DNA from: Tubiluchus corallicola
Lineage: Eukaryota > Animalia > Priapulida
Assembly (NCBI GenBank): GCA_030141605.1
Contig: JAQGDQ010000857.1
Span: forward strand, 1-50,550
Length of the DNA: 50,550 bases
Direction of reading: 5' to 3'
A program made the position numbers and the translations under genes. The notes under the pieces are model-generated. The model worked only from the letters and a program-made list of their open reading frames with translations, searched no databases and was not told the origin of the DNA. Shown piece by piece: positions 6,201 to 39,589 of this stretch. Position 1 is the first letter of the stretch. Every line of letters starts with the position of its first letter.

Positions 6201-7833
6201 CAGACCTTCCTTTTACAGACATTACAGAATGTTTCCTTGTCCTTTAACTCAGCTACGGTAAGCAGACATTTTGATCACTCAGACCTTCTTTTTACAAACA
6301 TTACGGCCTGTAGCATTTATTTCTTCCTGCAGAAATATAGCATAAGAATTTGACAAAAAACGTCTTTCGTTAACAGAGATTCGTGATTCCGGTGTTTTGC
6401 TTCGGCGCGGCGATGATAATATCAACATGGCCGCCACGTTCCAGGACAGTCCGACATCTTGTTAACTCTTGTTTGATTGTGAGATTTTTATTGTTTTACT
6501 GCATGTTATTTACTATTGTTGTTGTTTTTTTGTTTTCTCACGTGGATTTACAGCTTTGCTGGACTAACCCTTTTTCGTGTTGATTTTAACACTATGCATA
6601 AACAACCTGAGCATTTTTAGAAAAAGCTCCCTACTGAAGAGAATATATGCTGCTTCGTTTAGAATGATGCGATGCTTTAAGCTTAATAAGCCTTTTCACA
6701 GTTCCGGGAATTGATGATGATCATGAAAAGGTCAAAGGTTAAGTCTACCAGACAACGCATTTGTGCATACTTGACAACGCCTCGCAGCCCATGCTATTGT
6801 AACAGTAATAGTTTTAACGGCTAGCCAGAACCTTACCTAGTTCATTTTTTATTGTTCCCAAGCAAGATCCTGCTTGTAAATAACTCCACGCACCGACTAA
6901 TGTATTATTAAGTAAAGTCCACGTAGAACAACTGAACTTACTGAACCGATGTGGCAGACGGCTTTGCTTTACACACATGTCATGCGAGGGCTGGTTGTAG
7001 TTAAGATGCGTTGCTGTGGCACACTTAACCTTTGACCTACAGCAACTGCGCGCGTACACAACAAAACTGTGAAAAGGCGTATTGTACTAACAGCTACTCT
7101 AACACTGCTAATAGCTCTCGTGTCCTTTGAACGCTAATACGTTTTCATTACTGTCGTCTAAACTTGTGCGTAGAACCATTTTTCTAGATTGGCTAGAGCC
7201 ATTTGCATAGACATGTATTATTAGCTCATATTGTTTTTCCTGGACTATGTCATTAGGGTAGAGCATATCATCTGCCTAGAGTCATTTGCTTACATTATCT
7301 CATTTGTCTACATTATGTCATCTGTCTTGAGCATTTTGCATGGATTATCATTTGACTGCAGCCCTAGACATAATTTTCTAGATTAGGTAACTCATGGTTT
7401 GCCTAGAGTCACATTTTCCTAGGCATGTTACTTCCCTAGACTAGGGCAATTTGCTATTTGGGATGGGATCATTATGCCATTTACTTAAGCCTACTGCTTC
7501 CCCAGATTTCAGCTAGATGTTATGGCAGGACCACAACCTATCGCATTATCAACTACAATCCATTTAAAAGAGTTACTGAACCAGCAGATGTGTTTTAGCC
7601 ACATTCGGGCGTTGTGAATCATGACAGCGTGATAATTAGCCACAGACCGTATGGCTGATGAAACCACTTGTCAAGTTTTATATTTTTCACCCATCTAATT
7701 ACTGTTCGGGTTCAGTGTTGCTAAACTTACGCACTTTTTTCTTTTAGCTTCTATTGTATCTCCTCTGAAGAAGATGGCCGCGGACGACACAAACGAAGAT
7801 TCATCTCAGGAAACGAGACAAGTGATTACTTAG
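275..7833 (+). CDS. spns1: Spinster-family (SPNS1/spin-like) MFS transporter, 3' part; the 5' exons lie outside the window
   Basis: Phase-consistent AG/GT exons: 275-470 ([65 protein letters not shown]), 1304-1369 ([22 protein letters not shown]), 2262-2360 ([33 protein letters not shown]), 3224-3410 (ISDILKDS...[42 protein letters not shown]), and probable last exon 7748-7833 ([28 protein letters not shown]). [25 protein letters not shown] and [14 protein letters not shown] are Spinster hallmarks. The terminal exon is less certain than the internal ones. Confidence 0.93.
755..1138 (+). mobile_element. Non-autonomous DNA element, family A, copy 1
   Basis: Termini aataaaccttttcaaagtt ... aactgtgaaaaggcttatt form an imperfect TIR. 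Homologous copies occur at 6685, 9363 and 48543. Confidence 0.85.
1541..2028. mobile_element. MITE with C(A/G)GGGTT(T/C)CCAC-type TIRs
   Basis: Left end cggggttcccac and right end gtggaaaccctg, with repeated subterminal ttttccctgac motifs. No clear TSD. Confidence 0.75.
2367..2850 (+). mobile_element. TTAA-type (T2/Kolobok-like) MITE, family B, 3'-degenerate copy inserted 6 nt after a spinster donor
   Basis: ttaaacgaagaccggacgattgtttagactc... aligns with the copies at 3837, 16120 and 46345(-). Confidence 0.8.
3837..3953 (+). mobile_element. Family B MITE 5' fragment
   Basis: ttaaaggaaaaccggacgattgtttagactcaatctc...aataattagctt has the same structure as the start of the 16120 copy. Confidence 0.8.
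5674..6304. repeat. 79-bp minisatellite, 8 copies
   Basis: Unit gaatgtttccttgtcctttaactcagctacgataagcagacattttgatcactcagaccttccttttacaaacattaca, repeated with few substitutions. Confidence 0.97.
6377..6465 (+). CDS. Candidate alternative terminal exon of spinster
   Basis: Acceptor gtctttcgttaacAG at 6375-6376 is phase 1, compatible with the donor at 3411. It reads (E)[28 protein letters not shown] and is a GC-richer island in AT-rich intron. Confidence 0.5.
6685..7083 (-). mobile_element. Family A element, copy 2 (inverted)
   Basis: Reverse-complement homolog of 755-1138, with termini aataagccttttcacagtt ... aactgtgaaaaggcgtatt. Confidence 0.85.
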
Positions 7834-8644: not shown

Positions 8645-9315
8645 ATGTGTGTGCTTGTAAACCAAAATCGGCCACAAGTCGGCATAGTTAAAACTACGTT
8701 ACGATGCTTCAAAGTAGAATGTTCCAGAAATTTGGTCTAATGTCGATTTTTCACTTTTTATGAAAACAAATGCTAAATATATCAGACTTTCATATTCTAG
8801 CATCAAATTATCAGGAAAATGTCCAAAAATACTAAAAATCTAATTTTATCTACCCACTTTTCCTTCTAGAAACTAGTACTGCAATTGTAAATAACCTTGT
8901 ATTTTCTAACTCCGATTGTAGCTCGTGGAAGCAGCCATTTTGTTTCAGGTTTTTTCTGTTGACAAGTCCAAATCTTCGTCAGGAAGAGCCATCTACTGGA
9001 TTTAAACAAATTTAAACAACTTTAATGTGTTCTTGCATAGTCCGTAACATCCAACATTTGTACGGCTGCTAAGTGTTTTGCAGAGATGTGACAAAAAACA
9101 ATGGCTGACTTTAATAACAGTGATTTTCTTAAGATTATATTTTTCAGTGCGCAGCCTGCACCTCAATTTCAATGTTGATTATCTCAGCTTAGAAACAACA
9201 TAGAGTGATGAACTTGGTATAAAAATAATTCTTATGAAATAGAGATTCAGGATGTGTGAATAAATAGAAAAACTTAATAGCCTTATGGACGATTTTGCTA
9301 TACAAGCACACGTAT
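8645..9315 (+). mobile_element. Non-autonomous DNA element, family D, full-length copy
   Basis: TIR-like ends atgtgtgtgcttgtaaaccaaaatcggccacaag ... cttatggacgattttgctatacaagcacacgtat. Homologs occur at 18159, 21605, 24160 and 27610. Confidence 0.85.
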
Positions 9316-9362
9316 TATTGATGGCCTCACACTTCATTTTAAAAGCTTCATGCAGTTAATGC

Positions 9363-9712
9363 AATAATCCTTTTCACAGTTACGTTGTGTGCCGTGCAGT
9401 TGCTGCCACAGCTATGCATCTTAACTACAACCATAATTTGTGTGTAAAGCAGAGCCGTCTGTCGCATCAGCTGTTTTATGTGGACAGTACTTAATAATGC
9501 ATTAGTTGGTGCGTAGAGTGATTTACTAGCAGGATCTTGTTTGGGAACAAGAAAAAATGAACTAAGTAAGATTCTAGATAGCTGTTAAAATTGTTACTAT
9601 TACAGTAGCATGAGCTGCGTTGTCAAGTTTACACAACTGTGCTGTCTGGTACACTTAACCTTTGACCCTTTCAAGATCATTATCCATGGCTGGAACTGCG
9701 AAAAGGCTTATT
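9363..9712 (+). mobile_element. Family A element, copy 3
   Basis: aataatccttttcacagtt ... aactgcgaaaaggcttatt, with small internal deletions relative to copy 1. Confidence 0.85.
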
Positions 9713-16858: not shown

Positions 16859-17760
16859 GGCCGAGGTAATCATGCTGAGCAGCAAACCTAACACATCAAA
16901 GATTTCTTCCATTGTGCTTTTTGTTCTTTTTTACATCAAAATGTGATTAAAGAATACGGCAGGCAGGAAACCACCAAAGGAATGGTGTAGAAGTACCTGG
17001 ACATCTGTTGTTTACAAACAACACCGTTTATGGAAGCACAAAATGATAAACGTGCAACAAAATTAACGCGAAATCATAAAGGTTTCTTTTTTGCAAGTCA
17101 CTGTTTAGTTCTGGGCAAAAAAAGCATTTACAAAATGGCTGAAGTGCGAAAGTTGCAGTCTTTGCAAAAAATATGCAGAATATACAGAACATTACAGAGA
17201 CGCGGCAAAGCATGAACTGCTTTCTGACGGTAATCACAGACATTCACACATCACAAGACAATGAACAATAAAATTGTTCTTTCGATTATAAGAATTTCTC
17301 GTTTAAAGTATGCCGTGCAGTAGTATGCTCGAGTCGCCTCCGAACTTCCAAACTAGCATTTTACACGAGTGGCAAAATCACTATGCATGTAGTACACCTG
17401 GAAATGTGCCACATAATGCTAGACTAAGCATAAACCAGTTCAGTGTGGATAGGCTTCAACCATGACGTAGTAGATTTTCTTTTCATTTGATGTGATTTGG
17501 CAAAATCTTTCTTTGTGTTTGTTACCAAATTACTTGGCTAAAATTGTTCATTAAATTTCACTAGAAAAAATGTTTCCTTTGGCAGAATTCGACTGAACAG
17601 TTGTTAGAGGTAAGGACGCTAAAATTGTCGAGCAATTTTAATCCTGAATTTGTCAAATATATTAGATACCTTTAAGCTTTCTACACACTGTTTACATGCA
17701 TGTATTAACAAATAAATCGATTGCACATATTGAAAATATTAAAAACTATTGCAGTAATTA

Positions 17761-20700
17761 TCATTCACACTTCTGAGCGCCAGACGCCTTTTCTGACTCG
17801 CGTAGATGGCGCTGCTTGCATAATCTCTTGTGATACGACTGTGCCATGCTGTTTACTATCGATAGGAGAAAGTACGCTATCATCACCATGACGACACGTT
17901 CGAAAACCCACTGCAGCCAATTAGCATCCTAGAAAAATCATCAAGTCAGAGTTAGTAGGTCGTTCAAGTTGTTTGCGCACCTTGAGTTTTTGGAATGAAT
18001 CTTTTTCTAATGTTGCAAGAATACGAGTAAACAGCGTATTGCAAGTTTCTGCAATTTGGGGCAATCCACATGTAACGGATATGAAGTTTAGGGTAGGTAG
18101 GAGACAGGAGACGTGATAACGCCATTGTGCCACAGGGTAAGTAAGTGATTTAGTCGTGATATGTGTGTTTGCAAATCAAAACCGTCCGTAAGATGGCATA
18201 GTTAAAACCACGTTATGATACTTCAAAGAAAAGTGCACCAAAATTTTGTTCAAATGTGAATTTTTTGTTTTTTAGAAAAACATAGACATAGAACATTTAT
18301 TTTCTCTAATTAGTTTGACATCAAGTTTTTTAAATATTAAGTAATTATAATCATGGAGCACAGCAGGTAGGTAGATGGTATTGGTAAATATATTGGAGTT
18401 TTATATTCTAGCATGAAATTATCAAGAAAATGTCCAAAAAATACTAAAAATCTAATTTTATAAACCCGTGCCCACTTTTCCGGTTAGAAATTAGTACTGC
18501 AATTGTAAAAAACTTGTATTTTCTAACTCCGATTGTAGCTAGTGGAAGCAGCCATTTTCCTTTTGGTTTTTTTTGTTGACAAGCCCAGATCTTTGTCAGG
18601 AAGAACCATCTACTGGATATAAACATAACTTGTGCTCTTGTAAAGTCCATAGCAACCACACCTTCGAATGGTTGCTAACTGTTTTGTACAAACGCGACAA
18701 AAAACAATGGCTGACTTTAACAATGAATTTCTCAAGGTTATGTTTTTCAGTGTGCAGCCTGCACCTCAACTTCAACGTGGATTATCTCAGCTTAGAAATA
18801 ACATAGAGTGATGAACTTGGTATCAAAATGATCCTCATGAAATGGAGATTCAGGATACGTGAATAACTAGAAAAGCTTAATTCCGACTTATGGACGATTT
18901 TGCTATGCAAGCACATGTATCGTTATCTGACTTCACGTTTTTTTCACATGTGCAAGCAGCAGCCGACACCACAAAAGCGAGACCATTTTGTGCTGATCCC
19001 AACATAAAACCATTTTTACTCAAAAAAGGGGATATCTTTATATGTGGATGGCTCCTATTGCTCAAAAACAGGGATGTTGTTATATGTGAATGGTCCCTAT
19101 ACTCAAAAACAGGGATATCGTTATATGTGGATGGCCCCTATACTCAAAAACAGGGATGTCGTTATACGTGAATGGTCCCTATGCTCAAAAAAGGGGATGT
19201 CGTTATATGTGGATGGCCCCTATGCTCAAAAAAGGGATATCGTTATATGTGGATGGCCCTATGCTCAAAAACACGGATATCATTATATGTGGATGGTCCC
19301 TATGCTCAAAAAAGGGGATGTCGTTATATGTGGATGGCCCCTGTTTCAAAAAAAGGGATATCATTATACGTGGATGGCCCCTATTTCAAAAAAGGGATAT
19401 CATTATACGTGGATGGCCCCTATTTCAAAAAAGGGATATCATTATACGTGGATGGCCCTATGCTCAAATACTCTTACTCTCGAAACACATAGCAGGTAGT
19501 TAAATTCCGCATAATTCATGCTGCTTCTTTTACTTTTTCAACAATATTAACAATTTCAATACAGCAGAGAAATTAAGTGAAACGTTAAGAGAAATTAAGC
19601 ACTTAAACTTTGACTCTTTGCAACTGCACGTGTGCACAATGAAATTGTGAAAAGGCCAATTGCTCACCGGATAACGGTGCTTTTCCGGTCGATGGTGCAA
19701 ATGCGCGTGTGCACAACGAAACTGTGAAAATGCCAATTGCTCACCGGATAACGGTGCTTTTCCGGTCGATGGTGCGAATGCGCGTGTGCACAATGAAATT
19801 GTGAAAATGCCAATTGCTCACCGGATAACAGTGCTTTTCCGGTCGATGGTGCGAATGCGCGTGTGCACAATAAAACTGTGAAAAAGCCAATTGGTCACCG
19901 GACAACGGTGCTTTTCCGGTCGATGGTGCAACTGCGCGTGTGCACAACGAAATTGTGAAAAGGCCAACTGGTCACCGGATAACTGTGCTTTTCCGGTCGA
20001 TGGTGCAACTGCGGGTGTGCACAACGAAATTGTGAAAAGGCCAATTGCTCACCGGATAACGGTGCTTTTCCGGTCGATGGTGCAACTTATCCTTCTGCTT
20101 CTGCAGATACTGTTTAAATGGAGCTTGAAGTCTCTTTCCATACCTTGGAACATAGCTGAAACAAAGTGAAAATACACTAACTGTACGCAACCGGAAACAT
20201 ACATTTTAGAAAATACTGTTTCCACGGTAACTGCACCGTTATGCTGCACTTTTTATTACACCTCTTGAACATCCGACTCTCGTAAAGATGGAAAAACCAG
20301 CAGGGGAATCAGGTTCATTCTGAACAAAGTCTGAAAATATAAGAGTTTCACACGGAGGCGTAGGAAGGGGGAGGGGGACAACTGCCACTGGGCGCAAGGG
20401 TGAGAAGGCGCAAAATTCCTCTACAGTTCAATGACTGTTAATTACTAATTACTAATCCGACATTAACAAAACAATTAACATAAGTTTTCAAACTACAACA
20501 AAACTGCCTAGGTAGAGATCATCACAACTGACTTAAATACTACCTACAGTTCAGAAAAAAGGCTAATGTTATTACTTAACGGCATGTGTAGGGTGTCGTG
20601 TGGCGTAGCATATCGATAATTTTGGGAGAAACAGCGACATTTCTGTAAATGCCGATTGCATTATTGTGAAAACCTGTAGTGTTCTGTATCTTTCGTAATC

Positions 20701-23700
20701 TTTGCATGTTTTAATGCTGGAGCTGAATGTTTAATGACTGTCGTGTTATGAGCAATTTATGCATAGAAAAGAGTTACTCTGCTGCAGTACCACAAATCAA
20801 ACTCCGGGTGATTCGTAGAAAAAAAATTGTTTACCTTTATCGTCGAAAAAGCAAAGCCGGGCTCACACAAAATTTGTCGCATCACCCACAAATGATCAAA
20901 ACATTAAAAGCGTAGGCCGCAAAAAGTTTTTTCGCCCCCTAGTGCCACAAGCACTTGCTACACAACTGGGTTCACATCATTTTAGACAAGACAAGCGCAA
21001 ACTGCAGGAAAAATTACTCGAATCGACAAAAATTCAAGTTATATTTACAACCAACACTAAGGAGATTTGTTAGCCATAAGTAAACAAAGTATTTCACACT
21101 GACTTACCCTATCCATGATACTAGTTTATCTACGTGATGTTCACTAAAAGTCACGATCACAAATAGCTTCTGAATGTGCATTTTGATCACGGCCTTGCCG
21201 ATTAGAGTCGCGCCAAAGAACGTCCAAAACGGGACCAGAAAGTGTCCGCAGGTGATCCCGGCGAGGTCAAACAGTGGATTGGGAATCTAGAAAAGACATT
21301 AATAATCAGTTTACTGAAAGAAAAGTCCAAAATGGGATCAGCAAGTGTCCGCACAAGATCACGGCGAGGTCAAAAAGTGGATTGGGAATCTAGAAAAGAG
21401 ATATTAATAATCAGTTTACCAAAAGAAAAATACCGGGAACATACATACCCCATACAGGCAAGCAAATTTTAACTTTCACGGTAAATTATGATTTTCCGCA
21501 AAACTCGTAAAACTCATTTTGGCGATGTCAAAAGCAGGCAGGGATGGATTACCTTATAGACTATATAGTATTTTGCATTGCTGAATAACTGATTTAACCT
21601 TAAATAAAATTTAGTCGCTCTACGTTATTTCTAAGCTGAGATAATCTACATTGAATTTGAGGTGCAGGCTACGCACTAAAAACATAATCTTGAGAAAATC
21701 ACTGTTAGCCATTGTTTTTTGTCGCGTCTTTACAAAACACTTAGCAACCGTACAAAAGTGTGGTTGCTATGGATTATAAACAAGCAAATTGAAGTTACGT
21801 TTAAATCCAGTAGATGGCTCTTCCTGACGAAGATTTGTTCTTGTCAACAGAAAAAACCTGAAGCATGATGGCTGCTTCCACGAGTTACAATCGGAGTTAG
21901 AAAATACACGTCTTTACCATTGCAGTACTAGTTTCCAGACGGAAAAGTGGGTATGGAATTATAAAATTAGATTTTTAGTATTTTTAGACATTTTCCTGAT
22001 AATTTGATGCCAGAATATCAGTCAAATATATTTTGCAAAAAATAAAAAATCGACATCTGACCAAATTTTTGGTGCATTCTACTTTAAAGCATCATAACAT
22101 AGTTTTAACGACTTACGGACGGTTTTGGTTTGCAAGCACACATATGATAACATGACAAAATGACAAAAAATGTGAAGAATTGACAGAACCATAACTATAA
22201 TCACATTCGTTAAGAAATTGAAATTCCAACGGCGGAGTTTTAGATGAGAAATTTCGATGACGTGTGTGTTAACTACAAGCCGAGTCTACAGCTCCTAAAA
22301 TATTGCTTACTGCAACATAGTAATACAAAGGCTATTGTTTTTGAAAGCATGTCACTAAATCCAAAGCAAGTTTTGTGACAATGTCAGATTCTCACAGCTT
22401 TTTCAACTAACGCGGTAGATTTTAAGGCTTTGAAAAGGCAGATTCTCACAGCTTGTTCAACTAACACTGTAGATTTCAAGGCTTTGTAAAGGCACATTCA
22501 CACAGCTTGTTCAGCTAACGCTGTAGATTTTAAGGCTTTGTAAAGGCAGATTCACACAGCTTGTTCAGCTTACGCGGTAGATTTTAAGGCTTTGTAAAGG
22601 CAAATACTCACAGCTTGTTCAGCTAACGCGGTAGATTTTAAGGCTTTGAAAAGGCAGATTCACACAGCTTGTTCAGCTTACGCGGTAGATTTCAAGGCTT
22701 TGTAAAGGCACATTCACACAGCTTTTTCAACTAACGCGGTAGATTTTAAGGCTTTGAAAAGGCAGATTCTCACAGCTTGTTCAGCTTACGCGGTAGATTT
22801 TAAGGCTTTGTAAAGGCACATTCACACAGCTTGTTCAGCTTACGCGGTAGATTTCAAGGCTTTGTAAAGGCACATTCACACAGCTTTTTCAACTAACGCG
22901 GTAGATTTTAAGGCTTTGAAAAGGCAGATTCTCACAGCTTGTTCAGCTAACGCTGTAGATTTTAAGGCTTTGTAAAGGCAGATTCACACAGCTTGTTCAG
23001 CTAACGCTGTAGATTTTAAGGCTTTGTAAAGGCAGATTCACACAGCTTGTTCAACTAACGCAGTAGATTTCAAGGCTTTGTAAAGGCAGATTCACACAGC
23101 TTGTTCAGCTTACGCGGTAGATTTTAAGGCTTTGTAAAGGCAAATACTCACAGCTTGTTCAGCTAACGCGGTAGATTTTAAGGCTTTGAAAAGGCAGATT
23201 CTCACAGCTTGTTCAACTAACGCGGTAGATTTTAAGGCTTTGTAAAGGCACATTCACACAGCTTGTTCAGCTAACGCTGTAGATTTTAAGGCTTTGTAAA
23301 GGCAGATGCACACAGCTTGTTCAGCTTACGCGGTAGATTTTAAGGCTTTGTAAAGGCACATTCACACAGCTTGTTCAACTAACGCGGTAGATTTTAAGGC
23401 TTTGTAAAGGCAGATTCACACAGCTTGTTCAACTAACGCGGTAGATTTCAAGGCTTTGTAAAGGCAGATTCATACAACTTGTTCAGCTAACACGGTAGAT
23501 TTTAAGGCTTTGTAAAGGCAAATACTCACAGCTTGTTCAGCTAACGCGGTAGATTTTAAGGCTTTGAAAAGGCAGATTCTCACAGCTTGTTCAACTAACG
23601 CGGTAGATTTTAAGGCTTTGTAAAGGCACATTCACACAGCTTGTTCAGCTAACGCTGTAGATTTTAAGGCTTTGTAAAGGCAGATTCACACAGCTTGTTC

Positions 23701-26700
23701 AACTAACGCGGTAGATTTTAAGGCTTTGAAAAGGCAGATTCTCACAGCTTGTTCAACTAACGCGGTAGATTTTAAGGCTTTGTAAAGGCAGATTCTCACA
23801 GCTTGTTCAGCTAACGCGGTAGATTTTAAGGCTTTGTAAAGGCACATTCACACAGCTTGTTCAGCTAACGCGGTAGATTTTAAGGCTTTGTAAAGGCAGA
23901 TTCACACAGCTTGTTCCAGAACCACTACTTACCGATGCGCAAGCTAGGATGCCCAGAAATCCAACTTTTTCCACGATGCTTTCGACAGCAAGTTTCGCCC
24001 TTTCTAGAAACGACTGAAAAAATATTACACAATTAATAATTATGTTGATTTTCGTTTACACGACAAGCAGAAATCAAAGACTCAAAATAATACCAATGCC
24101 CATTGTGCAAAACGTAGGGTCATCATCGTGCGCAAGTTTAAAGTTTCGCTGACAAATAAATGGTTTTTTATAATTGCAGTACTAGTTCTAGCCTGAATAG
24201 TGAGTAAGGGGTTTAAAAATTGGATTTTTAGTATTTTTTGAACATTTTCTACATAATTTTATGCTAATATAAAACTCCAATATATTTAGCATTTGTTTTT
24301 AGAAAAAAATGACATTTAAGCAAATTTTCGATGCACTCTACTTGGCAGCAAAATAATGTAGTTTTAACTATGCCGACTTATGGACAGTTTTGGTTTGCAA
24401 GCACACATGTAATAAGTGTTGTTTGCTTACGCTGTTGTAAAGTTTTGCAACATACGTAATAAGTGTTTTTTGTGTACGCTGTTGTAGTATTTTGCAAGCA
24501 CATATGTAATAAGTGTTGTATGCTTACGCTGTTGTAGTGTTTTGTAAGCACATACGTAATAAGTGTCGTTTGCTTACACTGTTGTAGTGTTTTGTAGCAC
24601 ATGTAATAAGTGTTGTTTGCTTCCACTGTTATAGTATCTTACAAGCACATATGAAATAAGTGTTGTTTGCTTACACTGTTGTAGTGTTTTGCAACATACG
24701 TAATAAGTATTGTTTGCTTACGCTGCCGTAGTATTTGAATCCATGTATTTGAAAGTAAACAATACGGTAACTAGCAAATTCTACAATTGGCACAAAAGCC
24801 AATGAACAAACCTGTGGGTGTCCTCTGTGCTCCTGCAGCTGTTGAAACTCTTCCAGTTCATCCAAATCAGCTTCAGTACCGGACAGAGCTGCAGCACGCG
24901 CCATGAAATACGGAGGCAGCTCGCCTAGTGCCGTGCCTGCACCCTGGTGGCAGAAATAATATTTTAAAGAACAAACAATCTTATTAAATCTAAACAGAAA
25001 GAAGGGAAGTGAGAAAAAAGGCACAACAGAAAGAAAAAGAGCAAAAGAGGGAAGGGCTGTGAAGGTATTGCATATAGGAGAGGAACACAGAATGAGAAAG
25101 AGAGTGAATACGAAAGTACAGAACATGGGAGCGGGACAGAAAATGAGAGGAAGAAAGAAAAAGAGAGCAAGAGAATGAGTATGAAAGTACCACTTATGGA
25201 AGAGGGACAGAGAATAAGAGAAAGAAAGAAAAAGAGCAAAAGAGAGAGCGAATATGAAAGGACCGCATATGGAAGAGGGACAGAGAATAAGAGGAAGAAA
25301 GAAAAAGCGAGCAAGAGAGAGAGTGAATATGAAAGTATCGCATGTGGGAGTGGAGCAGAGAATGAGAAAGAAAGAGAGCAAAAGAGTGAAGATGAAAGTA
25401 CTGCATATCGGAGCGGGACAGAGATTTGCTATCTTGAGATCTAATATAATGCAAAATGCAGTGGTACCTTGTTGCACTCTATCTGTTTCTGTGTTTTTGC
25501 TTTTGTTTGACTGTTCTTCTGGTTCTGTAATGGTCCCGGTGGATGCAGTCTCTCTGTCACACTGATATGCTGCTGGTTTCCCTTATTGTAGTTCCAACTT
25601 GTAAATTGTGCAAAATGCAGAAGTTGTGTTTTATACTTATAAATGTTTACTGCTGTGGTTCTTCATTGCGTAAACTTAGATTAATTGTTTACCATGTTGT
25701 GTTTTATACATATAATGTTTACTGCTGTGGTTCTTCATTATGTAAACTTGGACTAATTGTTTACTATGTTGTATTTTATACTTATAATGTTTACTGATGT
25801 GGTTCTTCATTATGTAAACTTGGACTAATTGTTTAATATGTTGTATTTTATACTTATAATGTTTACTGCTGTGGTTCTTCATTACGTAAACTTGGACTAA
25901 TTGTTTAATATGTTGTGTTTTATACTTATAATGTTTACTGCTGTGGTTCTTCATTACGTAAACTTGGACTAATTGTTTACTATGTTGTGTTTCATACTTA
26001 TAATGTTTACTTCTGCTGTGGTTCTTCATTGAGTAAACTTAGATTAATTGTTTAATATGTTGTATTTTATACTTATAATGTTTACTGATGTGGTTCTTCA
26101 TTATGTAAACTTGGACTAATTGTTTACTATGTTGTATTTTATACTTATAATGTTTACTGATGTGGTTCTTCACTATGTAAACTTGGATTAATTGTTTAAT
26201 ATGTTGTATTTTATACTTATAATGTTTACTGATGTGGTTCTTCACTATGTAAACTTGGACTAATTGTTTACTATGTTGTGTTTTATACTTATAATGTTTA
26301 CTGCTGTGGTTCTTCATTATGTAAACTTGGATTAATTGTTTAATATGTTGTATTTTATACTTATAATGTTTACTGCTGTGGTTCTTCATTATGTAAACTT
26401 GGATTAATTGTTTAATATGTTGTATTTTATACTTATAATGTTTACTGATGTGGTTCTTCACTATGTAAACTTGGACTAATTGTTTACTATGTTGTATTTT
26501 ATACTTATAATGTTTACTGATGTGGTTCTTCACTATGTAAACTTGGATTAATTGTTTAATATGTTGTATTTTATACTTATAATGTTTACTGATGTGGTTC
26601 TTCACTATGTAAACTTGGACTAATTGTTTACTATGTTGTGTTTTATACTTATAATGTTTACTGCTGTGGTTCTTCATTATGTAAACTTGGATTAATTGTT

Positions 26701-29700
26701 TAATATGTTGTATTTTATACTTATAATGTTTACTGCTGTGGTTCTTCATTATGTAAACTTGGATTAATTGTTTAATATGTTGTATTTTATACTTATAATG
26801 TTTACTGATGTGGTTCTTCATTATGTAAACTTGGATTAATTGTTTAATATGTTGTATTTTATACTTATAATGTTTACTGCTGTGGTTCTTCATTATGTAA
26901 ACTTGGATTAATTGTTTAATATGTTGTATTTTATACTTATAATGTTTACTGCTGTGGTTCTTCATTATGTAAACTTGGATTAATTGTTTACAAAATGTGT
27001 TCTTTTCTGGTTCTCATGTGTTCAATAAAACTTTTTACATTTCTCTACAATTTCTTCCGTTAGAATCACGTTTATTTTGACACGTTAATTTCTAATCTGT
27101 TGTTTTGTAGCTTCAGTTTGTGCCTTTGTATAATCATTAATGCATTGTTTGCATGTTGCTTATACATTAAGTATGTAAGACTCTAAACGTTTTTGAAAAT
27201 CCAACCCTTCTGCAACGCAATTTCAGTTTATGATAAATCAACACATGTGACCAGCGTCCCCCCATTCCACCCACTGACCTTGCTTCCTCACCATACCGTG
27301 ACAACTGCTGTTAATGTATTATTTATTCTTTTTGGCTTCATTTAAAGTTTGATAATGGCTTCAACAGCCGAAATGATTGTCAGTCAATAAACATGGTGAT
27401 TCCAAGAAGCATATTAGAGTACTGTTGTTAACTCACCCACATACAAGCTTCTAGTCGTACTTTACTCATGATGGTCCAAATAGATATGTGTCCTGTTATA
27501 GGTACCGTGTCTTCTGGACAAATGATGCTGTACAAAGAAAACGAAAAGAATCAAATGAACGAAACAAAAAATACGAATCCTAGATATGTGATTTTAATTT
27601 AGAAATTGTACAAGAGCAAATTGAAGTTACGTTTAAATCCAGTAGATGGCTCTTCCTGACAAAGACCTGGTTTTGTCAACAGAAAAAGCCCGAAGCAAAA
27701 TGACTGCTTCCACGAGCTACTATCGGAATTGGAAAATACAAATTTTTTACAATTGCAGTTATAGTTTCTAGCATGAAAAGTGGGTAAGGAGTTATAAAAT
27801 TAGATTTTTAGTATTCTTTAGACATTTTCCTGATAATCTGATGATAGAATATAAAGTCCAATATATTTAGCATTTAATTTCATAAAAAAAATGATATTTG
27901 ACCAAATTTTTGGTGCATTCTACTTTTTAGCATCATAATGTAGTTTTACTATGCCGACTTATGGACGGTTTTGGTTTGCAAGCACACATAAGTAATTCTC
28001 TCTCAATTATTGTCACATGAAAGGCTCCTGGTAATTTGAAAACAATTTGGTTTGTGAGACAGACCAGCTAGCATTGAATGTTATAGTATTGAACATTAGT
28101 ATAGTATAGGATACTGAGTGTCACAGACAAAAATACAGCATCTAATGGATTTCCGTTCACTGGATTTGAACATTGTTCAGTCATAAATTGATTTCTTTTT
28201 GTTTGAACGCGTTCAATGCTTGTCGTAAGAGCAAGCTTTGATAATGTGATTATTTTTGTTCATAGATCCAGCACCCTGTAACCATTCTAGTAACTAAGTC
28301 CTACACTTTAGAAACTGGCCTACGACGCAGTCAGCCAGAGACAGTAGAAAGGAGGAGCTTACTCGTCTGGATACGGAGGCTCCGGAAATTTTACGGAATC
28401 ACACTCGTAAGCAGCTAGCGTGACGGCAGCTATGTGCGGACCCTGAAACGTACATTGCACACATTTGATTAGCTGTACAACAAACACGATGCTGTTACTT
28501 CATTTTGCATTAAGTTGCGACTGTGACTTTTATTTGGATAAACTTGGTATGCCAAAGTCCTGATAAGACAGGCAAATTTGCGTAGGAGTTGTCATAAAAA
28601 TCAGTTGACTAACAGGGACTGTTCTAATATACAGTAGACGCAGCTTAATAGACTCATTTTGGGACCGAAGTGTTTTGACCCAATTAACCGAATGAACCTA
28701 TTAACCTATGGGTGTAGTATTACAGGTACAGAAGTATGAGTCATCAGCTTACTATGCACTGCAAAGGTTTTTAAAGAATTTTAGAAACGAAGTAATGCCT
28801 AAAAAAATGTTTTAAAATATTAGTTTACATAAGTGAATTACCAGTAAATTAAAAAGTATACTTTTCTAAATCACAGACCTTTCTAAGTCTGTTTATTAGC
28901 AAAAATTACAAAAATTCCTTCAAACTCGGCTGCTTCATTTTCTCGCGAAAAAGTTGGCTCCCAAAGTTCTCGTAATTATAAAAACGCTGAAAATCTGTTG
29001 TTGTCTGATGCACAAATTCTCGTAAACGGCACTTAACACGACTGTTTCTACGTATATTACAGTGCATAAAAGGGAAGTAAAGATAACATAAAAGTAGGAA
29101 AGGCTCTTTGGGTACATACAAAAGTCTTATTTTAAGTACGTGAAGGAAAAATATTGAGTCAACTATGCGGAGTTATTAGAGTCAATTACCGATAGTTTTA
29201 TGTACATTTGAATAGAAGCGGCCCGTTCCAGGCGTTTTTGAGTCAATTAAGCGATTGAGTCTATTAACCGTGAGTCTATTAAGCGGCGACTACTGTACTA
29301 CAACAAACGATTAGCAATATGTTTAAAATAACTCAAAATAACAAAGGAGATTATGTTCTAAATTTAATTTCAGATTAATGCAAACAAAACTTACTAGTGT
29401 TAGCTAAACAACGAACATATCAAAAATTTGTTAAAACAAATTACATTCTGCTCAACATGCGCATTTCTACACAACCTTAAATTGCCATTGCCGACCAAGC
29501 TACATACCAGGTACAGCAAGAAAGTGTGTAATCCAGTACCAAGACCCACAGAAGATAAAACACCCAAGCCAGTCCAGTACACGCACCATAAAAACACTTT
29601 ACGAAATGACTCCACATACTGAAAAAATGCAAAAAATTCTGCATGAGAAAAATAACAATTACACACAATCTTTAACAAGCCGAGATAAAAGTTTTTCCTC

Positions 29701-32681
29701 AAATCCAATTTTATTGTATTAATATTTCCTCATAATAATTGTCCATGAGGTAGATTAAAATGTTAAAACAATTCAGGACGAACTTTACAAGATAATGCGG
29801 GACAACTTTTTGGATCCAGAGATTTTCGTGAACACGATCCAGACTACTTACTGACCGAACTCGATGCTTCGTAATGATTTGTCACAGGATTCTTCATGGC
29901 AGACCCTATTTTTCACTACTTGGAAGTTTAAAGCAAAACCGGATACAATCTTAAGTTGTAGGTCAAAACAATCTACACTTTAAAATATTGAAAGGAAACA
30001 CTGTTTTTTCCAGAATGACTTACGTGAAAGAATTATTACCACACAAACACAATTTCATGTTCGCGCCACTAGTTCTCCGCTGTTACATGCATTTTGCCAT
30101 TCGCTAGTTAGACGGGTACTAGTGCCTGCATTTTGGAAACGTGTTGCACAAAAAACAGGTGCAGTACCTCTCAGTTCAGATATGTTAGTTTACGACACAC
30201 TGCACACGTTCGACAGCTCATGCGTGAGTACAGCGGTAAGTTTGAGATTTGTATTTTTATCTTAACTTGCCTAGTTTTAGCACAAAACACTGAATATCTT
30301 ACAGTAGCACTGTATTTCAATTTTCACTTTCGCAAACACGTGCAACACACTCGTTGGATGTTTTTGCTGCTAGAAATTATGTATGTTAGTTTGTGATGTC
30401 ATCAATAGTTGGACTTGCTTGCCATTAATTAAGTTTCTAATCTATTATTTAATTACAAGAAATGCTTTTGCAATATTAAATACGTTAAAATGTATACTTT
30501 TTATCAGACTTGAAAATGTGGTAGTATATGAAAAATCATCCTGTCTTCATCAAAACAAGTGTGAAAAAATAATAATAGCACGCAGTACGTGAAAGTACCT
30601 TTTGATGAGCGCCAGCACTATGATAAGTAGCTACAAATAATAAAACTGCGGAAAGAAAAGCTGAAACCATCTTCTTGTTCCTCCATAACCTAAAATAGAA
30701 CAGATAAACAATAAAATCTCGAAACCGATGACATTTAAATCGGGAATAATGCGCATCATTTAGTTGCCTCCTCCAGAAATGCTTAGCAAATGCGTTAAAA
30801 CATTCATCATTTCTCTGCACCGTACATCAGTTCACACTAACGCCCTCTGCAACTCACACTAATTATTAATAATAATTAGTTAATTAGAATGTGTTAAAAC
30901 ATTAGCAACTGTTAATGATCTAGTTGCCTCCTCCACAAATGCTTAGCAAATGCGTTAAAACATTCATCATTTCTCTGCACCGTACATCAGTTTACCTCGT
31001 AATTATGAAATACTACTAACGCCCTCTGCAACTCACACTAGTTATTAATAATAATTAGTTAACTAGAATGTGTTAAAACATTAGCGACTGTTAACGATCT
31101 AGTTGCCTCCTCCACAAATGCTTAGCAAATGCGTTAAAACATTCATCATTTCTCTGCACCGTACATCAGTTTACCTCGTAATTATGAAATACTACTAACG
31201 CCCTCTGCAACTCACACTAGTTATTAATAATAATTAGTTAACTAGAATGTGTTAAAACATTAGCGACTGTTAATGATCTAGTTGCCTCCTCCACAAACGT
31301 ATCTGTCAGTTCGTACATTTAAACTTCATCTTTTTTGAACATGTCCAAGAGCTAAGCAAAGAAGATATGAGTAATAATATGATCTGCTAGTGCACTGGAG
31401 ACACGGCCTAAACTTTAACCATCAAAACACAAACACCGAGGAAGTCAAGACAGGGCTGCTTCTCTGTGGATTACGTACCTGATTCCATAATCATGAATCA
31501 CACATAGTAGCTCTAGTACAAAGTAATGGACTGTGGTCACGGGGTGCTTGTAGAGAACAATGTTCTTGCGTTCCTGTCGCTCGTGGAACGTGGAACGTAG
31601 AGACGGCAGTCGAGGGCTGAAAAAAGTAATTAGATTAAAGAACAAATCAATCGCCACATCTATAAATCAATATGGTGTCTCCACTGTCCTTCGAAATGTG
31701 CACGGGAAATAGCAAAAATTACTTGAATGTAACTAATGTATTCTGAAGATTTTTCATGTTGCAGCATTTGAAGTAATTTTACACTTTAATTTTAGTAGTG
31801 GAAGTGGTGCTGACAAGTCACTGGCATAGCAGCATTTAGTTTTTTTGCTGGATTACTGCTGTGTTTACCCATCTTGAGGGCAGATTTCTTTTATTTTAGA
31901 ATTTTGCTTGTCCAACGTCTTCAGTTTTACATAACGTGCATTATGATGATGATGACGACGATTTTAAGAAATCTTGACGTATTCCGTTCCGGATTGTTAT
32001 AAAATGCTCACAAGGAATAGCAAAAATTACTTGACAGTAACTAATTTACTTTGAAGATATCTCATATTGTAACACTTGCAGGAATCATACATTTTAAGAA
32101 ATCTTGACGTATTCCATTCCGGATTGTTATAAAATGTTCACAAGAAATAGCAAAAATTACTTGACTGTCACAAGCTTACTTTGAAGATTTCTCATATTGT
32201 AGCACTTGCAGTAATCATACATTTTGAGAAATCTTGCTGTATTTCATTCCGTAACTATATCCTCAAGAAATTGATTTGGTGCTGCCATCTGTAGTCTAGT
32301 TTGTGGGGAGAGCTATAGTGGAGTTCTCTGTACGCAAACTTACGTATGATTATCTCATACCCCCCTTAAAGGTTAGATTACAATGCAAAATCGCCATACT
32401 AGCTGAGTGCGTGACAGTGATGCCACTAGCAATGTGGGAGATCTTTGCATTTTCTTGAGAAAATCGTCAGCGGTTTTCACTGCGCATGTGCACTGTCGGC
32501 ACGACAGACATCTACTAACAGCAAAATTGAAATTTTATTTAGTTTACCCGTGAGAAATATTTGTGCAATTTCTGTCCGACGGTGAATGAGGAGGGCTGCC
32601 ATTAGCTACCCTTGATCCCAAATTGTGCCCCGATTTAATGCCTCTACGAGACATGACCTGCACCGGTTCTCCTTCCTCCAT
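17761..32681 (-). CDS. VMP1: Vacuole membrane protein 1 (VMP1/TMEM49), DedA/VTT-domain ER scramblase and autophagy factor; complete, 435 aa
   Basis: Eleven phase-consistent exons on -: 32681-32548, 31616-31479, 30689-30599, 29618-29508, 28442-28363, 27527-27437, 24943-24812, 24013-23933, 21286-21108, 20155-20053, 17928-17761 (total 1308 nt). Hallmarks include [100 protein letters not shown] and [13 protein letters not shown]. An acceptor at 32736-32737 implies a further upstream 5' exon. Confidence 0.97.
18159..18920 (+). mobile_element. Family D element, full-length copy in the last VMP1 intron
   Basis: atatgtgtgtttgcaaatcaaaaccgtccgtaag ... cttatggacgattttgctatgcaagcacatgtat, colinear with 8645-9315. 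Confidence 0.88.
19016..19468. repeat. ~41-bp minisatellite, ~11 copies
   Basis: Unit ctatgctcaaaaaaggggatgtcgttatatgtggatggccc, with length variation in homopolymers. Confidence 0.95.
19621..20086. repeat. 77-bp minisatellite (6 copies) containing the VMP1 exon-10 3' end and splice donor
   Basis: Unit caactgcgcgtgtgcacaacgaaattgtgaaaaggccaattgctcaccggataacggtgcttttccggtcgatggtg. On - it reads [10 protein letters not shown]|GTGAGC. Confidence 0.97.
20353..20968. mobile_element. Degenerate hAT MITE
   Basis: The ends cggaggcgtagg / gctacacaactg resemble CAGTGGCGTAGC-type TIRs. 8-bp TSD gtttcaca / ggttcaca (7/8 match). Confidence 0.65.
21306..21430 (-). pseudogene. Duplicated VMP1 acceptor plus partial exon (pseudo-exon)
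   Basis: Duplicate offset by 103 bp: ttttctAG|[27 protein letters not shown] versus the true exon [25 protein letters not shown]. Confidence 0.88.
21605..22145 (-). mobile_element. Family D element, inverted and truncated
   Basis: Reverse-complement homolog ending ...cttacggacggttttggtttgcaagcacacatat. Confidence 0.85.
22385..23916. repeat. 54-bp minisatellite, ~28 copies
   Basis: Unit cagattcacacagcttgttcagctaacgcggtagattttaaggctttgtaaagg. It begins about 15 nt into the intron after VMP1 exon 8. Confidence 0.99.
24160..24410 (-). mobile_element. Family D element fragment
   Basis: aattgcagtactagtt...aactatgccgacttatggacagttttggtttgcaagcacacatgt matches the family D left end on the reverse strand. 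Confidence 0.8.
24390..24736. repeat. 47-50-bp minisatellite, ~7 copies, seeded at a family D terminus
   Basis: Unit gcaagcacatatgtaataagtgttgtatgcttacgctgttgtagtgtttt. Confidence 0.92.
25020..25425. repeat. Degenerate purine-rich ~55-75-bp minisatellite, ~6 copies
   Basis: Recurring aagaaaaagagcaaaagagagagtgaatatgaaagtac...gggacagagaat modules. Confidence 0.85.
25625..26990. repeat. 72-bp minisatellite, ~19 copies, with a 360-bp higher-order duplication
   Basis: Unit ttatacttataatgtttactgctgtggttcttcattatgtaaacttggattaattgtttaatatgttgtatt. 26102-26460 is repeated at 26462-26820. Confidence 0.99.
27610..27990 (-). mobile_element. Family D element, inverted and truncated
   Basis: Homologous to 21780-22145 and ends ...cttatggacggttttggtttgcaagcacacata. 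Confidence 0.85.
28632..29295. mobile_element. Tc1/mariner-superfamily MITE
   Basis: TA|cagtagacgcagcttaatagactca ... tgagtctattaagcggcgactactg|TA gives a 25-bp TIR and a TA TSD. Confidence 0.9.
29928..30552 (+). mobile_element. TTAA-type MITE, family C, copy 1
   Basis: ttaaagcaaaaccggatacaatc ... gaaaaatcatcctgtcttc, colinear with 34097-34752. Confidence 0.85.
30761..31297. repeat. ~179-bp tandem repeat, 3 copies
   Basis: tagttgcctcctccacaaatgcttagcaaatgcg... starts at 30761, 30921, ~31100 and ~31279. Confidence 0.96.
31690..32250. repeat. 130-bp tandem repeat (~2.2 copies at 31961-32250, plus a diverged copy at ~31690-31795)
   Basis: aatagcaaaaattacttga...tgaagat..ctcatattgtagcacttgcag recurs, with a period of 130. 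Confidence 0.85.
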
Positions 32682-33188
32682 ACTGTGCTGAGTTGAATTG
32701 GGGAGGCTGTAATCAGATTTCAACAGCCGCTGGACCTGAAAAACAGACCCACGAGAGTAGTTACAAGCAGTTAAACAGTAAATTTCTATTTTACAACACA
32801 AATTTTAGAAACCAGAAACAAAATAAAGTATGTATTATTGGTACAGGCACGAACTTTACACTTTTATGGCCAGTAAGATGTTTTAGTTGTCTTTAAACTG
32901 CCTTTGTCATTGACAATCACAATGCAAATAAATTGTATTATTAGATATAGTAAAAACATATACTGTTCTAAGCAAATGCACTGTACTGTATCGTAATGTA
33001 GCTGATGTTTATTCACCATACAAATTTAACTAACATTAAATACACACAGTACTAACCAAATAATCTTACAGAATCATCAGGTAACACTAGTAGATACAGG
33101 TATCTTATATTTGTAACATCCTAAAATGAAACAGAGCATTGGTGGGCCCACAAAATGGTTGTCAATACCAAACGATTAAATTAACTTA

Positions 33189-35621: not shown

Positions 35622-35775
35622 ACAATGTTACTTGCAATGACAATAGACCGTTTTACTGCCATAAAACATCCTCTCAAGTGTGACGGCCTGATGAGAAGAT
35701 AGTTACTTCAGTTTATTATTATTAATTCATGGTTGTAATCATTTAGTGTAAGTGCTGTTATTTACTATCACAATT
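35622..35775 (+). pseudogene. GPCR fragment (TM3-TM4)
   Basis: TMLLAMTIDRFTAIKHPLKCDGLMRR*LLQFIIINSWL*SFSVSAVIYYHN is paralogous to the cluster genes, with two in-frame stops. Confidence 0.9.
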
Positions 35776-36024
35776 TGACACATTTTCCCCTTTTTATTTG
35801 TGATGTCAATTATATGCATTGTATGAGTGCTATATATTATAAAAGATATTATAACACATTTACAAGGTGTTATTATAAATGCTTGTTATTAATTATTAAT
35901 AACCCTTATTAATTGCGTTTATATCTCGTGCAGTTCACTGCTGAAAACACATATGTGAATGTTCAGAAATGGTGTTTTGAGAGATACGGAAATAAAATCT
36001 TGCATATGTAGATACTCAGTAACT

Positions 36025-36978
36025 ATGGAATCTGAAGGAGAATCTTACAATTTATGGTGTCACTGGCATGGAAATGATACTGAAAAGAATTTGATTTCCA
36101 AAGGTTGTGCCACATCACCAAGCATGTTTATTAATTACACTATAGCAGTACTTATCGAATTATCTAATCTTCTGGTTGTCATAGCTCTGGTCAAGTACAA
36201 GCACTTGGAAGAACACAAGAACTGGTACATATGTAACCTAGCTGTTGCTGACATTTTAACCGGTGCATTTCTCCATGTACGTACATATATGCACTGGCAA
36301 CGGCATGGTAGGATATCTAACAGTCAATGCTTATTATTGTTTCAATTTGGTTACATTTTTGTAACCGCCTCAGCAACAACGTTACTTGCTGTCACAATAG
36401 ACCGTTTTATCGCCATAAAATATCCTCTCAGATATGACAGTCTGATGAGAAGGTGGTTAGTTCAGTTTATTATTGTTATTTCATGGTTGTACTCATTTAG
36501 TGTAAGTGCTCTTGTATATCACCATGATAGCTGGGGAGGTCGATGTTTATTCAGAGATGTTATTAGCCGGGATTTGATCCTAGTGCTTGCCATACAGCAG
36601 CTGATAATTGTAACTGTGTTGTTGCTTATCAATGCCAACATCATGTGCATTGCACGAAAACATATGCGCCGGATTGAACCAGATGCAGCAAGATCGTACA
36701 AGCACATCGTGAAATCAGCCAAGATGATCAGTTTAGTTGTAGGTACTTTCATTTTGTGCTATTTTCCTATAATCTTTATCAATATAATCTTTGCATACAG
36801 TCAAATTTACAACATATCACCACTCATTGTTGATATCTTTACTACGCTGATATTCAGCAATTCGTTTATGAATCCGATAATTTATTCATGGAAAAATAAA
36901 GAGCTCCGGGAATCATTCAAGAAAGTGCTTCACTGGGACAGATTAAAAGTGTTCTTTAGAAGAAACTCCCACAATTAG
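36025..36978 (+). CDS. Class A (rhodopsin-like) GPCR 1, single coding exon, 317 aa; adenosine-receptor/MECA-like orphan
   Basis: Seven hydrophobic segments with NLAVAD (TM2), TIDRF (TM3), YPLRY, CYFP (TM6), NSFMNPIIY (TM7) and helix 8 KELRESFKK. Start MESEGES was chosen by comparison with paralog 41150; the ORF is open from an ATG at 35959. Confidence 0.93.
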   Translation: MESEGESYNLWCHWHGNDTEKNLISKGCATSPSMFINYTIAVLIELSNLLVVIALVKYKHLEEHKNWYICNLAVADILTGAFLHVRTYMHWQRHGRISNSQCLLLFQFGYIFVTASATTLLAVTIDRFIAIKYPLRYDSLMRRWLVQFIIVISWLYSFSVSALVYHHDSWGGRCLFRDVISRDLILVLAIQQLIIVTVLLLINANIMCIARKHMRRIEPDAARSYKHIVKSAKMISLVVGTFILCYFPIIFINIIFAYSQIYNISPLIVDIFTTLIFSNSFMNPIIYSWKNKELRESFKKVLHWDRLKVFFRRNSHN

Positions 36979-38168
36979 TAGGCACTGGTGTTATTATCAA
37001 TGGTACTTACTCTAATGAATAAATTAAAATTTGCAAAAGACCGCCGAATGTAAATAATGACTTAAATATACAACAACTGCTAGACTCCAGCCATTATTAT
37101 TAAGTGAAATCTACTACAACTTGCCTACAAGAACAGCAATAGTTAAATTTCACAAGCTGGACTCATCTCCCAACACAAAAACTGCATATTTGTGCAAATA
37201 ATGGAAACACCTTTTTAGAATTACAGAGTTAGGTAACAATGCGATGAACTCCTTTACCTCTCTAAACTGGAAATTTGAAGATACAAGCAGACGACAAAAG
37301 TGAAAATGTTTTTGATGTTTAATATCATAACAGATCACAACTAAACTTATAGACAGTGCAATCACTATAGTTCAATAAGTTCAACAACTGTTGCTGTTTT
37401 GTGAAGTTCTGATATTTGTACAGCCATGACAGCTCGAAAACATGCTGAAACTTCTACAATAATTGTTGCTGTGACTTGCACAGAGGGTGTGAATGGACTG
37501 GTCCTTGGAACGTCTGCTACTTGTTTTGCAGTGCATCTATTGCATGACATTTCAGTGCTTTCACTCTGTCACAGATATAGCATGGAACTTGCGTGAATTT
37601 CCTGTGTCACTGTTATAGGTTTTCCAAGAACTTAAATGATTTTAAGTTCGCAGAGGTAAAAAACTTTTTGAATTTAACTTCATTTCTTCTATATAACTCC
37701 TAGAATTTAGCATTTGGTATTTATTATAAACTGTAGGTATCATTTTACTGTCACTTTACCGACATAAGCTTACATTGTCCTTCATTATCAACATCTTTTT
37801 CATCACTCTTGTATTGTTGTGTCGTTTAATCATTATTGTGATGACAAGTGCAAATTGCAACACAATGCTGATGATATCGTACTAGCCAGATAAACAAAGC
37901 ACCATAATTTCTTTGTGTTGATTCAAGTTAGAGGCACCTATTTGTTGAGGTACAATATCAATACAACTTTAACTGCGGCACTAAATATCAGCAGGTCACG
38001 GTTATAGCTGACATAGCTGACAGTGAATCACAGTCATATACCAGTGTTAGACATGATAAACAAAGTAAAAGTCGAGTTGATACATCATGTAGTTTATCAC
38101 ACATAATGAGAAGGTTTAGAGATGGCATTTCAGAGATATGGAATTAAAAGTGTCATACACATCTAAGC

Positions 38169-39098: not shown

Positions 39099-39470
39099 AA
39101 ACACACAAAAAGGGGGCACTGCATCATCTCGGGTATAATCTAAATTTAGATTTTGCTAAGCAGCACTAAAACTAGATAATTGAAAGCTAAACAGCACTTA
39201 ACAGCATCACCAAGTAAGTGAAATCTATTACAACATGCCCACTTGAAAAATGGAAGATTTTAATAATACTACATTTCACTAGAGACAATTCCAGTTAGAG
39301 CTGTATTGGCAAACACACCGAGTCAGCAACAGGACTTTCAAACAAGCCAAGAACAATATATGGTCACCAGCCGATATATCAAATAGAAATCAGAACTATC
39401 TTGTAACCTCCCACCAAATTGTTCTCATTTGAACACAAAATTTAACGATGGACAAAATGACAAGAAAATG

Positions 39471-39589
39471 CAATTCATTTATGAATCCAATAATTTATTC
39501 CTGGAAAAATAAAGCTTCGGGAATCGTTCAAGAAAGTGCTTCACTGGGACAGATTAAAAGTATTCTTTAGAAGAAACTCGGGCAATTAG
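39471..39589 (+). pseudogene. GPCR 3' fragment (TM7-helix 8)
   Basis: NSFMNPIIYSWKNK, then a 2-bp deletion (aaagcttcgg versus aaagagcttcgg), then ...ESFKKVLHWDRLKVFFRRNSGN*. Confidence 0.9.

What the first reader, a model, noticed from the sequence alone, without database searches (positions are those of the whole stretch)
19600..20086. Six tandem splice donors: a satellite built from a VMP1 exon end, its donor and a transposon terminus, with the nearest decoys weakened
Seen: on -, each 77-bp unit contains the last ~10 codons of exon 10 ([10 protein letters not shown]), the donor and the intron start. Donor GTs lie at 20052, 19975, 19898, 19821, 19744 and 19667. Only the first gives the in-frame 103-nt exon; the second shifts frame, and reading past it meets TGA. 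The authentic donor and the three distal decoys are GTGAGC, whereas the two decoys closest to the exon are GTGACC (+5 G>C). The intronic half of the unit (caactgcgcgtgtgcacaacgaaactgtgaaaaggc, continuing to acttaaactttgac at ~19600) is the family-A terminus (compare 7023-7083 and 48880-48939). Established: +5G is a major U1/U6 pairing position. Inference: a transposon end beside a donor seeded the amplification. The array is either tolerated because nearby competitors were silenced, or it acts as a copy-number-tunable unproductive-splicing dial on a key autophagy gene. The shared +5 change may be one mutation later duplicated, so selection is not proven.
Basis: partly seen in the sequence, partly recalled or inferred. 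Interest (0 to 1): 0.8.

Follow-up and report, generated by a model that had tools for sequence, protein, structure and literature searches.

The report
Splice-donor minisatellite in worm VMP1 intron
A 77-base stretch covering the end of one exon of the autophagy gene VMP1, its splice signal and a scrap of an old transposon is repeated six times in a likely priapulid worm; this is an ordinary example of a repeat type known from human and lancelet genes, and likely only the first signal is used.

Summary
In detail: six 77-bp units (19619-20087) each carry a VMP1 exon end, a GT donor and 43 bp of a 62-bp relic of a high-copy MITE; units 2-3 have +5 G>C. Short-read contigs of one sample reproduce the units. 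Only donor 1 gives the conserved protein. The class is known: human F7, CBS, LMNB2, PDGF, 6-16 and amphioxus 'mirages'; this scan has met it on other DNA (31 notes, at least 16 genomes). The array ends sit on a 7-nt microhomology 43 bp inside the MITE end, pointing to slippage, not transposition; 0 of 85 sampled family ends lie in arrays. The +5 change lowers predicted U1 pairing (-8.3 to -5.3 kcal/mol) but fits drift (simulated P 0.22 to include unit 2; 0.08 for both 2 and 3); all five decoy GTs are intact, and an unweakened duplicated acceptor persists one exon upstream. In F7, copy number did not alter splicing, and a CBS paper's title already reports a silencing substitution in repeat 2. 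Donor 2 would not make an NMD-type transcript. Splicing here is untested. Verdict: real, ordinary, likely neutral.

The parts
19619..20087 (-). 77-bp minisatellite, 6.1 units, spanning the exon/intron boundary
   Evidence: unit-specific short-read contigs
20053..20155 (-). VMP1 penultimate exon, 103 nt (10th of 11 mapped)
20047..20052 (-). Donor 1, authentic (GTGAGC); predicted U1 duplex -8.3 kcal/mol
   Evidence: gap-free junction against 6 of 6 homologues aligned
19970..19975 (-). Decoy donor 2 (GTGACC, -5.3 kcal/mol); use would shift the frame and stop 46 nt into the last exon. Holds the in-frame TGA (19974-19972) met by donor 3-6 transcripts
19893..19898 (-). Decoy donor 3 (GTGACC); stop 73 nt before the junction
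19816..19821 (-). Decoy donor 4 (GTGAGC, intact); stop 150 nt before the junction
19739..19744 (-). Decoy donor 5 (GTGAGC, intact); stop 227 nt before the junction
19662..19667 (-). Decoy donor 6 (GTGAGC, intact); stop 304 nt before the junction
20081..20087 (-). 7-nt microhomology, exon side of the duplication
   Evidence: array length mod 77 = 7
19619..19625 (-). 7-nt microhomology, intron (MITE relic) side of the duplication
19600..19661 (+). 62-bp relic of the right end of the family-A MITE, 81% identical to the family majority; rest of element not found in the intron
17761..17928 (-). VMP1 last coding exon (55 aa and stop)
21215..21429 (-). Separate two-copy duplication of the previous exon's acceptor and start (decoy exon start 21389, real 21286; 98 of 110 identical; copies overlap by 8 T-rich nt); decoy AG and pyrimidine tract intact
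6682..7083 (+). Full-length family-A MITE used as reference (others at 755-1141, 9352-9712, 48543-48939)

Best explanation
This is an exon-boundary-spanning minisatellite in a single-copy VMP1 gene, likely born by slippage at a 7-nt microhomology and likely spliced out harmlessly because the first donor is predicted to be the one used. Steps: (1) shown by alignment: an old MITE end lies at intron +7 and only 62 bp remain; (2) shown in sequence, mechanism inferred: the relic and the exon share 7 nt 77 bp apart, and the array ends fall exactly there; (3) inferred: slippage or unequal exchange grew it to six units and spread variants between neighbours, the +5 G>C among them; (4) inferred from precedent: the exon-proximal donor is chosen, so all decoys leave with the intron; the +5 change may trim leakage from donors 2-3 but need not have been selected.
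For: Donor-1 product is gap-free against 6 of 6 homologues aligned, closest a Priapulus VMP1; 11 mapped exons give one open frame. Breakpoints on a 7-nt match. 12 of 77 columns vary, 1 of 9 in the donor; four of six shared variants are shared by adjacent units, as +5 is. Random placement of the 14 observed changes hits a decoy donor (-1..+5) in 65% of runs and includes unit 2 in 22%. All five decoy GTs intact; -5.3 kcal/mol lies within the range of the gene's other nine inferred donors (-4.5 to -10.9), and 2 of 10 of its donors lack +5G. The gene holds 8 TRF arrays plus one duplication; 1.6 boundary-spanning units expected by chance, 2 of 9 seen. An intact decoy acceptor persists one exon upstream. 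F7: identical or stronger downstream donors ignored and 1-12 monomers made no difference (PMC1557585); amphioxus mirages do not disturb splicing (PMC3087553).
Against: Donor choice was not observed in this organism. The chance that a change shared by exactly units 2 and 3 falls in the donor was 0.08 (post hoc). In human CBS and 6-16 the two nearest pseudo-sites are used, and a CBS paper's title says a substitution in repeat 2 prevents multiple splicing (reference list; text not seen), so weakening of these two sites can matter. Donor 2 is the one that would escape a junction-based NMD rule and truncate the protein. F7 data are mammalian; its discussion notes duplicated-donor studies with opposite results.
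Confidence: 0.74

Rival explanations
1. Compensated array: the +5 G>C in units 2-3 was favoured because the nearest decoys leak, and donor 2 makes a truncated VMP1 that would escape decay.
For: The weakened sites are the two nearest; 3 kcal/mol weaker predicted U1 pairing; CBS and 6-16 use the two nearest pseudo-sites; CBS repeat-2 precedent by title; P 0.08 for the exact pattern.
Against: One mutation copied once explains it, like the adjacent-shared variants at +14, +44, +46; no GT was lost; units 4-6 and the decoy acceptor are intact; P 0.22 to include unit 2.
Confidence: 0.17
2. Regulatory dial: copy number or conditions tune unproductive splicing from donors 3-6 and so VMP1 dose.
For: Donors 3-6 would leave a stop 73-304 nt upstream of the last junction (the 50-55 nt rule is recalled). 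Human repeats associated with splicing variation exist (PMC10078293, search listing only).
Against: F7 monomer number did not change splicing. Unit-specific contigs of the one covered sample lie near flank depth, with no listed joints, so no second length allele showed there. Units differ by 3-9 of 77 nt, as in a young local array.
Confidence: 0.05
3. Transposase-driven amplification: the MITE end itself caused the repeats.
For: The terminal inverted repeat lies in every unit; transposon ends are reported sources of tandem repeats (PMC9659126, passages).
Against: Breakpoint is 43 bp inside the end; the relic is truncated and 81% identical versus a family mean of 90%; 0 of 85 family ends in 42 loci lie in arrays; exact tandem-end patterns gave 0 and 1 genome hits.
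Confidence: 0.03
4. Assembly artefact.
For: No listed contig spans the whole array, and the covering sample may be the assembly's source.
Against: Units differ from each other; contigs of runs X1 and X2 match unit-specific stretches without differences.
Confidence: 0.01

Closest known systems
Human F7 IVS7 37-bp VNTR, with LMNB2 (100 bp x 10-15) and PDGF intron 4 (81 bp x 16-18) (PMC1557585: abstract, introduction, most results, passages of discussion read)
   Same: First unit spans the exon/intron boundary, so the donor is reiterated into the intron; similar copy number (5-9) and, for LMNB2 and PDGF, similar unit size.
   Different: Here use of the first donor is inferred, not shown; length polymorphism not shown; the intronic half is a MITE relic.
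Human CBS IVS13 VNTR (described in PMC1557585; Yang et al. 2000, PMID 11186895, title only from the reference list)
   Same: Donor-reiterating array; a single substitution in the second repeat is reported to stop multiple splicing, the same idea as the weakened nearest decoys.
   Different: 15-20 units; pseudo-site use was observed there. The paper's text could not be read.
Amphioxus 'mirage' minisatellites in Adh3 and globins BflGb6, BflGb9 (PMC3087553, abstract and section 16 read)
   Same: Invertebrate; both 5' and 3' exon boundaries duplicated; units 81-100% identical; 3-6 units; homogenised neighbours.
   Different: Haplotype length differences and normal splicing were shown there; generation mechanism called unclear, whereas here a microhomology is visible.
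Tandem repeats derived from transposon sequence (PMC9659126, passages read)
   Same: A non-autonomous element's terminal repeat forms part of the monomer.
   Different: The monomer is a hybrid of coding exon, donor and MITE end.

Membership tests
Exon-boundary-spanning minisatellite (F7/CBS/'mirage' type) | Head-to-tail units of 10-160 bp | tested here: met
   77 bp x 6.1, 92% matches
Exon-boundary-spanning minisatellite (F7/CBS/'mirage' type) | First unit spans a real exon/intron boundary and reiterates the splice site | tested here: met
   boundary inferred from frame and homology
Exon-boundary-spanning minisatellite (F7/CBS/'mirage' type) | Authentic (first) site used mainly or only | not testable with these tools
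   No junction-spanning RNA was available to lay
Exon-boundary-spanning minisatellite (F7/CBS/'mirage' type) | Length polymorphism between alleles | tested here: inconclusive
   One covering sample matches the assembly; the second sample had only 3 contigs, those listed being MITE ends
VMP1 | Orthologous sequence with the conserved VTT/SNARE-associated region and C-terminal segment | tested here: met
   85-90% identity to proteins named VMP1 over 60 aa, hits carry PF09335; single locus in the assembly
MITE (family A) | Short, high copy, terminal inverted repeats | tested here: met
   393 bp, perfect 19-nt inverted ends in the column majority; 4222 first-look candidates, 40 scored
MITE (family A) | Both ends present at the VMP1 site | tested here: not met
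   Only the right 62 bp; a relic, not an element
PHIS (PIF/Harbinger-ISL2EU-Spy) transposons | 0-3 bp target duplication and a matching transposase | tested here: inconclusive
   Ends read AAT...ATT in most of 16 copies printed, compatible with a 0-3 bp duplication (PMC12730594 passage); no autonomous partner was sought
Regulated unproductive splicing (AS-NMD) | Alternative junction gives a premature stop well upstream of the last junction | tested here: inconclusive
   Met on paper for donors 3-6, not met for donor 2
Regulated unproductive splicing (AS-NMD) | Observed, regulated use and conservation across species | not testable with these tools
   No related genome or junction reads were offered

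The most novel reading that the evidence does not exclude
An old MITE end beside a donor supplied the microhomology that multiplied the donor, and a selected +5 change then silenced the two decoys able to truncate VMP1, while donors 4-6 remain as a decay-coupled leak that sets autophagy gene dose by allele: a caught-in-the-act case of compensatory evolution in a splice-donor ladder.
Probability: 0.07. Interest if true: 0.55.

Novelty: new member of a known kind. Interest (0 to 1): 0.17.

Why it matters
As it stands it is a tidy extra case of a known tolerated repeat, extending it to a likely priapulid, with an unusually readable origin (microhomology between exon and MITE relic) and with donor-side and acceptor-side duplications on adjacent exons. 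It would matter more only if the +5 change proved compensatory or the decoys proved used, which would show how essential genes absorb duplicated splice sites.

Tried and rejected
RNA evidence: no RNA holder listed. The one RNA-guess run X6 gave a contig over 17719-17886 with 13 differences that does not reach the junction, and no cover at 20089-20350; uninformative. Second sample X4 had too little cover on the array. A 107-nt X3 contig with 3 differences at 19701-19807 fits a unit-5-to-unit-5 path through shared 31-mers (inferred), so it was not counted as an allele. RNA structure hiding decoys: all six donors sit in the same predicted hairpin, unit z = -0.1; rejected. Exon-derived half more conserved than intron half: 2 of 31 versus 10 of 46 variable columns, Fisher P 0.11; not significant. 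A closer MITE subfamily: best other hits 81-86% over the relic; none found. N-terminal exon search gave no credible hit. Literature: two searches for UPF3A VNTR found nothing; VMP1 with NMD gave 7 listed papers, none on such an array by title or abstract start; no listed paper held 'priapulid' (10 of 576 listed). No supplements were read.

Full report
Observation. The array is in the sequence as described: period 77, 6.1 copies, 92% matches, 19619-20087. On the minus strand the six donors lie at 20052, 19975, 19898, 19821, 19744 and 19667; units 1, 4, 5, 6 read GTGAGC and units 2, 3 GTGACC. Short-read contigs of runs X1 and X2 match unit-specific stretches with no differences, at depths of 138-234 in X1 against 197-212 for the flanks (8 of 50 X1 and 8 of 27 X2 records were listed; one X1 bin, 19875-19893, was empty but covered in X2). 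X1-X3 are one sample and may be the assembly's source, so this excludes an assembly slip better than it shows stability between individuals.

Gene. The upstream exon matches proteins named VMP1 at 85-90% and has one locus in the assembly. Eleven exons between 32735 and 17761 join into one open frame (edges inferred from frame and homology). The best full-length match among the six homologues tried is Priapulus caudatus, so the animal is likely a priapulid. The exon ending at donor 1 and the last exon abut without a gap against 6 of 6 homologues aligned, which marks donor 1 as the conserved junction. Donor 2 would add 77 nt, shift the frame and stop 46 nt into the last exon, replacing the last 55 residues by 40 others. 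Donors 3-6 would carry the TGA at 19974-19972, 73 to 304 nt before the junction. By the junction rule for NMD (recalled; its validity in this animal is unknown), donors 3-6 would be decay substrates and donor 2 would not.

Transposon. Family A is a 393-bp element with perfect 19-nt inverted ends (28 distinct of 30 copies) and 4222 first-look candidates in the genome (40 scored). The intron holds only its right 62 bp, 19600-19661, 50 of 62 identical to the family majority against a family mean of 90%, ending at intron +7. The array's two ends coincide with a 7-nt match between exon (20087-20081) and relic (19625-19619); six of the seven bases are the family's own. The breakpoint is thus 43 bp inside the element end. 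In 42 fetched loci (136 kb; chosen as best matches to the element or relic plus three U1 loci and one pattern hit; several duplicate or overlap) arrays of period 20 or more occur at 2.8 per 10 kb, yet 0 of 85 family ends lie in one; selection for intact copies biases this count downwards. Exact patterns for two ends 40-75 nt apart found 0 and 1 places in the genome. The relic therefore looks like passive substrate for slippage (inference).

How surprising is the position? The gene has 8 TRF arrays in 10 introns plus a two-copy duplication found by eye. Placing nine such units at random in the pre-array gene gives 1.6 expected to span an exon edge and P 0.83 for at least one; 2 of 9 do. The second is a duplication of the previous exon's acceptor and start (21429-21317 and 21324-21215, 98 of 110 identical), whose decoy AG and pyrimidine tract are intact; contigs of the second sample cover both copies.

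The +5 change. With this genome's U1 the predicted duplex drops from -8.3 to -5.3 kcal/mol; the gene's other nine donors range from -4.5 to -10.9, and 2 of 10 lack +5G: weakened, not dead. Twelve of 77 columns vary, one of the nine donor columns; of six shared variants four are shared by adjacent units (+5, +14, +44, +46) and the patterns conflict, as in ordinary array turnover. Scattering the 14 observed changes at random hits a decoy's -1..+5 in 65% of runs, includes unit 2 in 22%, and both 2 and 3 in 8%. The last figure is the best support for selection, but it is post hoc and rests on one event. No decoy lost its GT. Folding gives no donor a structural advantage.

What is known. PMC1557585 (abstract, introduction, parts 1-3 of 6 and passages read) describes the same architecture in human F7 and lists 6-16, CBS, LMNB2 and PDGF. 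In F7 only the most upstream functional donor was used, even against stronger downstream copies short of a perfect consensus, and 1-12 monomers did not change this; in CBS and 6-16 two pseudo-sites are also used. [quoted passage not shown] PMC3087553 (abstract and section 16) reports donor-side and acceptor-side 'mirages' in amphioxus that do not disturb splicing. PMC9659126 (passages) reviews tandem repeats derived from transposon ends. This scan has 31 notes in at least 16 genomes under these words, 8 shown; they are AI notes and were used as leads only.

Verdict. Real, correctly described, and a new member of a known kind. Best reading: a slippage-born, tolerated donor ladder spliced at its first donor (0.74); compensatory weakening 0.17; regulatory dial 0.05. 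Which donor is used in this animal, and whether the array varies in length, remain open.

Noticed in passing
window 21215-21429 (-): Two-copy duplication of the acceptor and first 27 codons of the preceding VMP1 exon, 89% identical, intact decoy AG, 8-nt overlap at the junction. Runs X1 and X2 differ from the assembly at 6 sites within 21052-21391 and X4 at 3 within 21303-21500.
   Followed up: partly
window 22385-23916: 54-bp x 28 minisatellite that begins only 16 nt into the intron after the donor at 23932, a near miss of the same kind.
   Followed up: partly
window 17761-32735: VMP1 introns hold 8 tandem arrays (periods 41-179); arrays of period 20 or more cover 14% of the window.
   Followed up: partly
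window 35622-44552: Five or six diverged copies (about 80-98%) of a segment of several hundred bases spaced 1.3-2.4 kb apart; may be repeated exons or a local gene cluster on the plus strand.
   Followed up: no
window 18128-18915, 8648-9215, 21608-22109, 24186-24408, 27624-27855: A second very high-copy dispersed repeat family, with copies in both orientations in neighbouring VMP1 introns.
   Followed up: no
window 20244: Run X1 reads G for the assembly's C at full depth: an assembly error or a different individual.
   Followed up: no
L039 (G000:C31:19142-19229): A family-A right end followed by a short partial repeat of internal element sequence; the only genome hit for two ends close together.
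   Followed up: no
window 17719-17886: Run X6, carrying the same species label as X1, differs at 13 of 168 bases in the last exon, and X5 shares almost no words: the label may cover diverged lineages.
   Followed up: no
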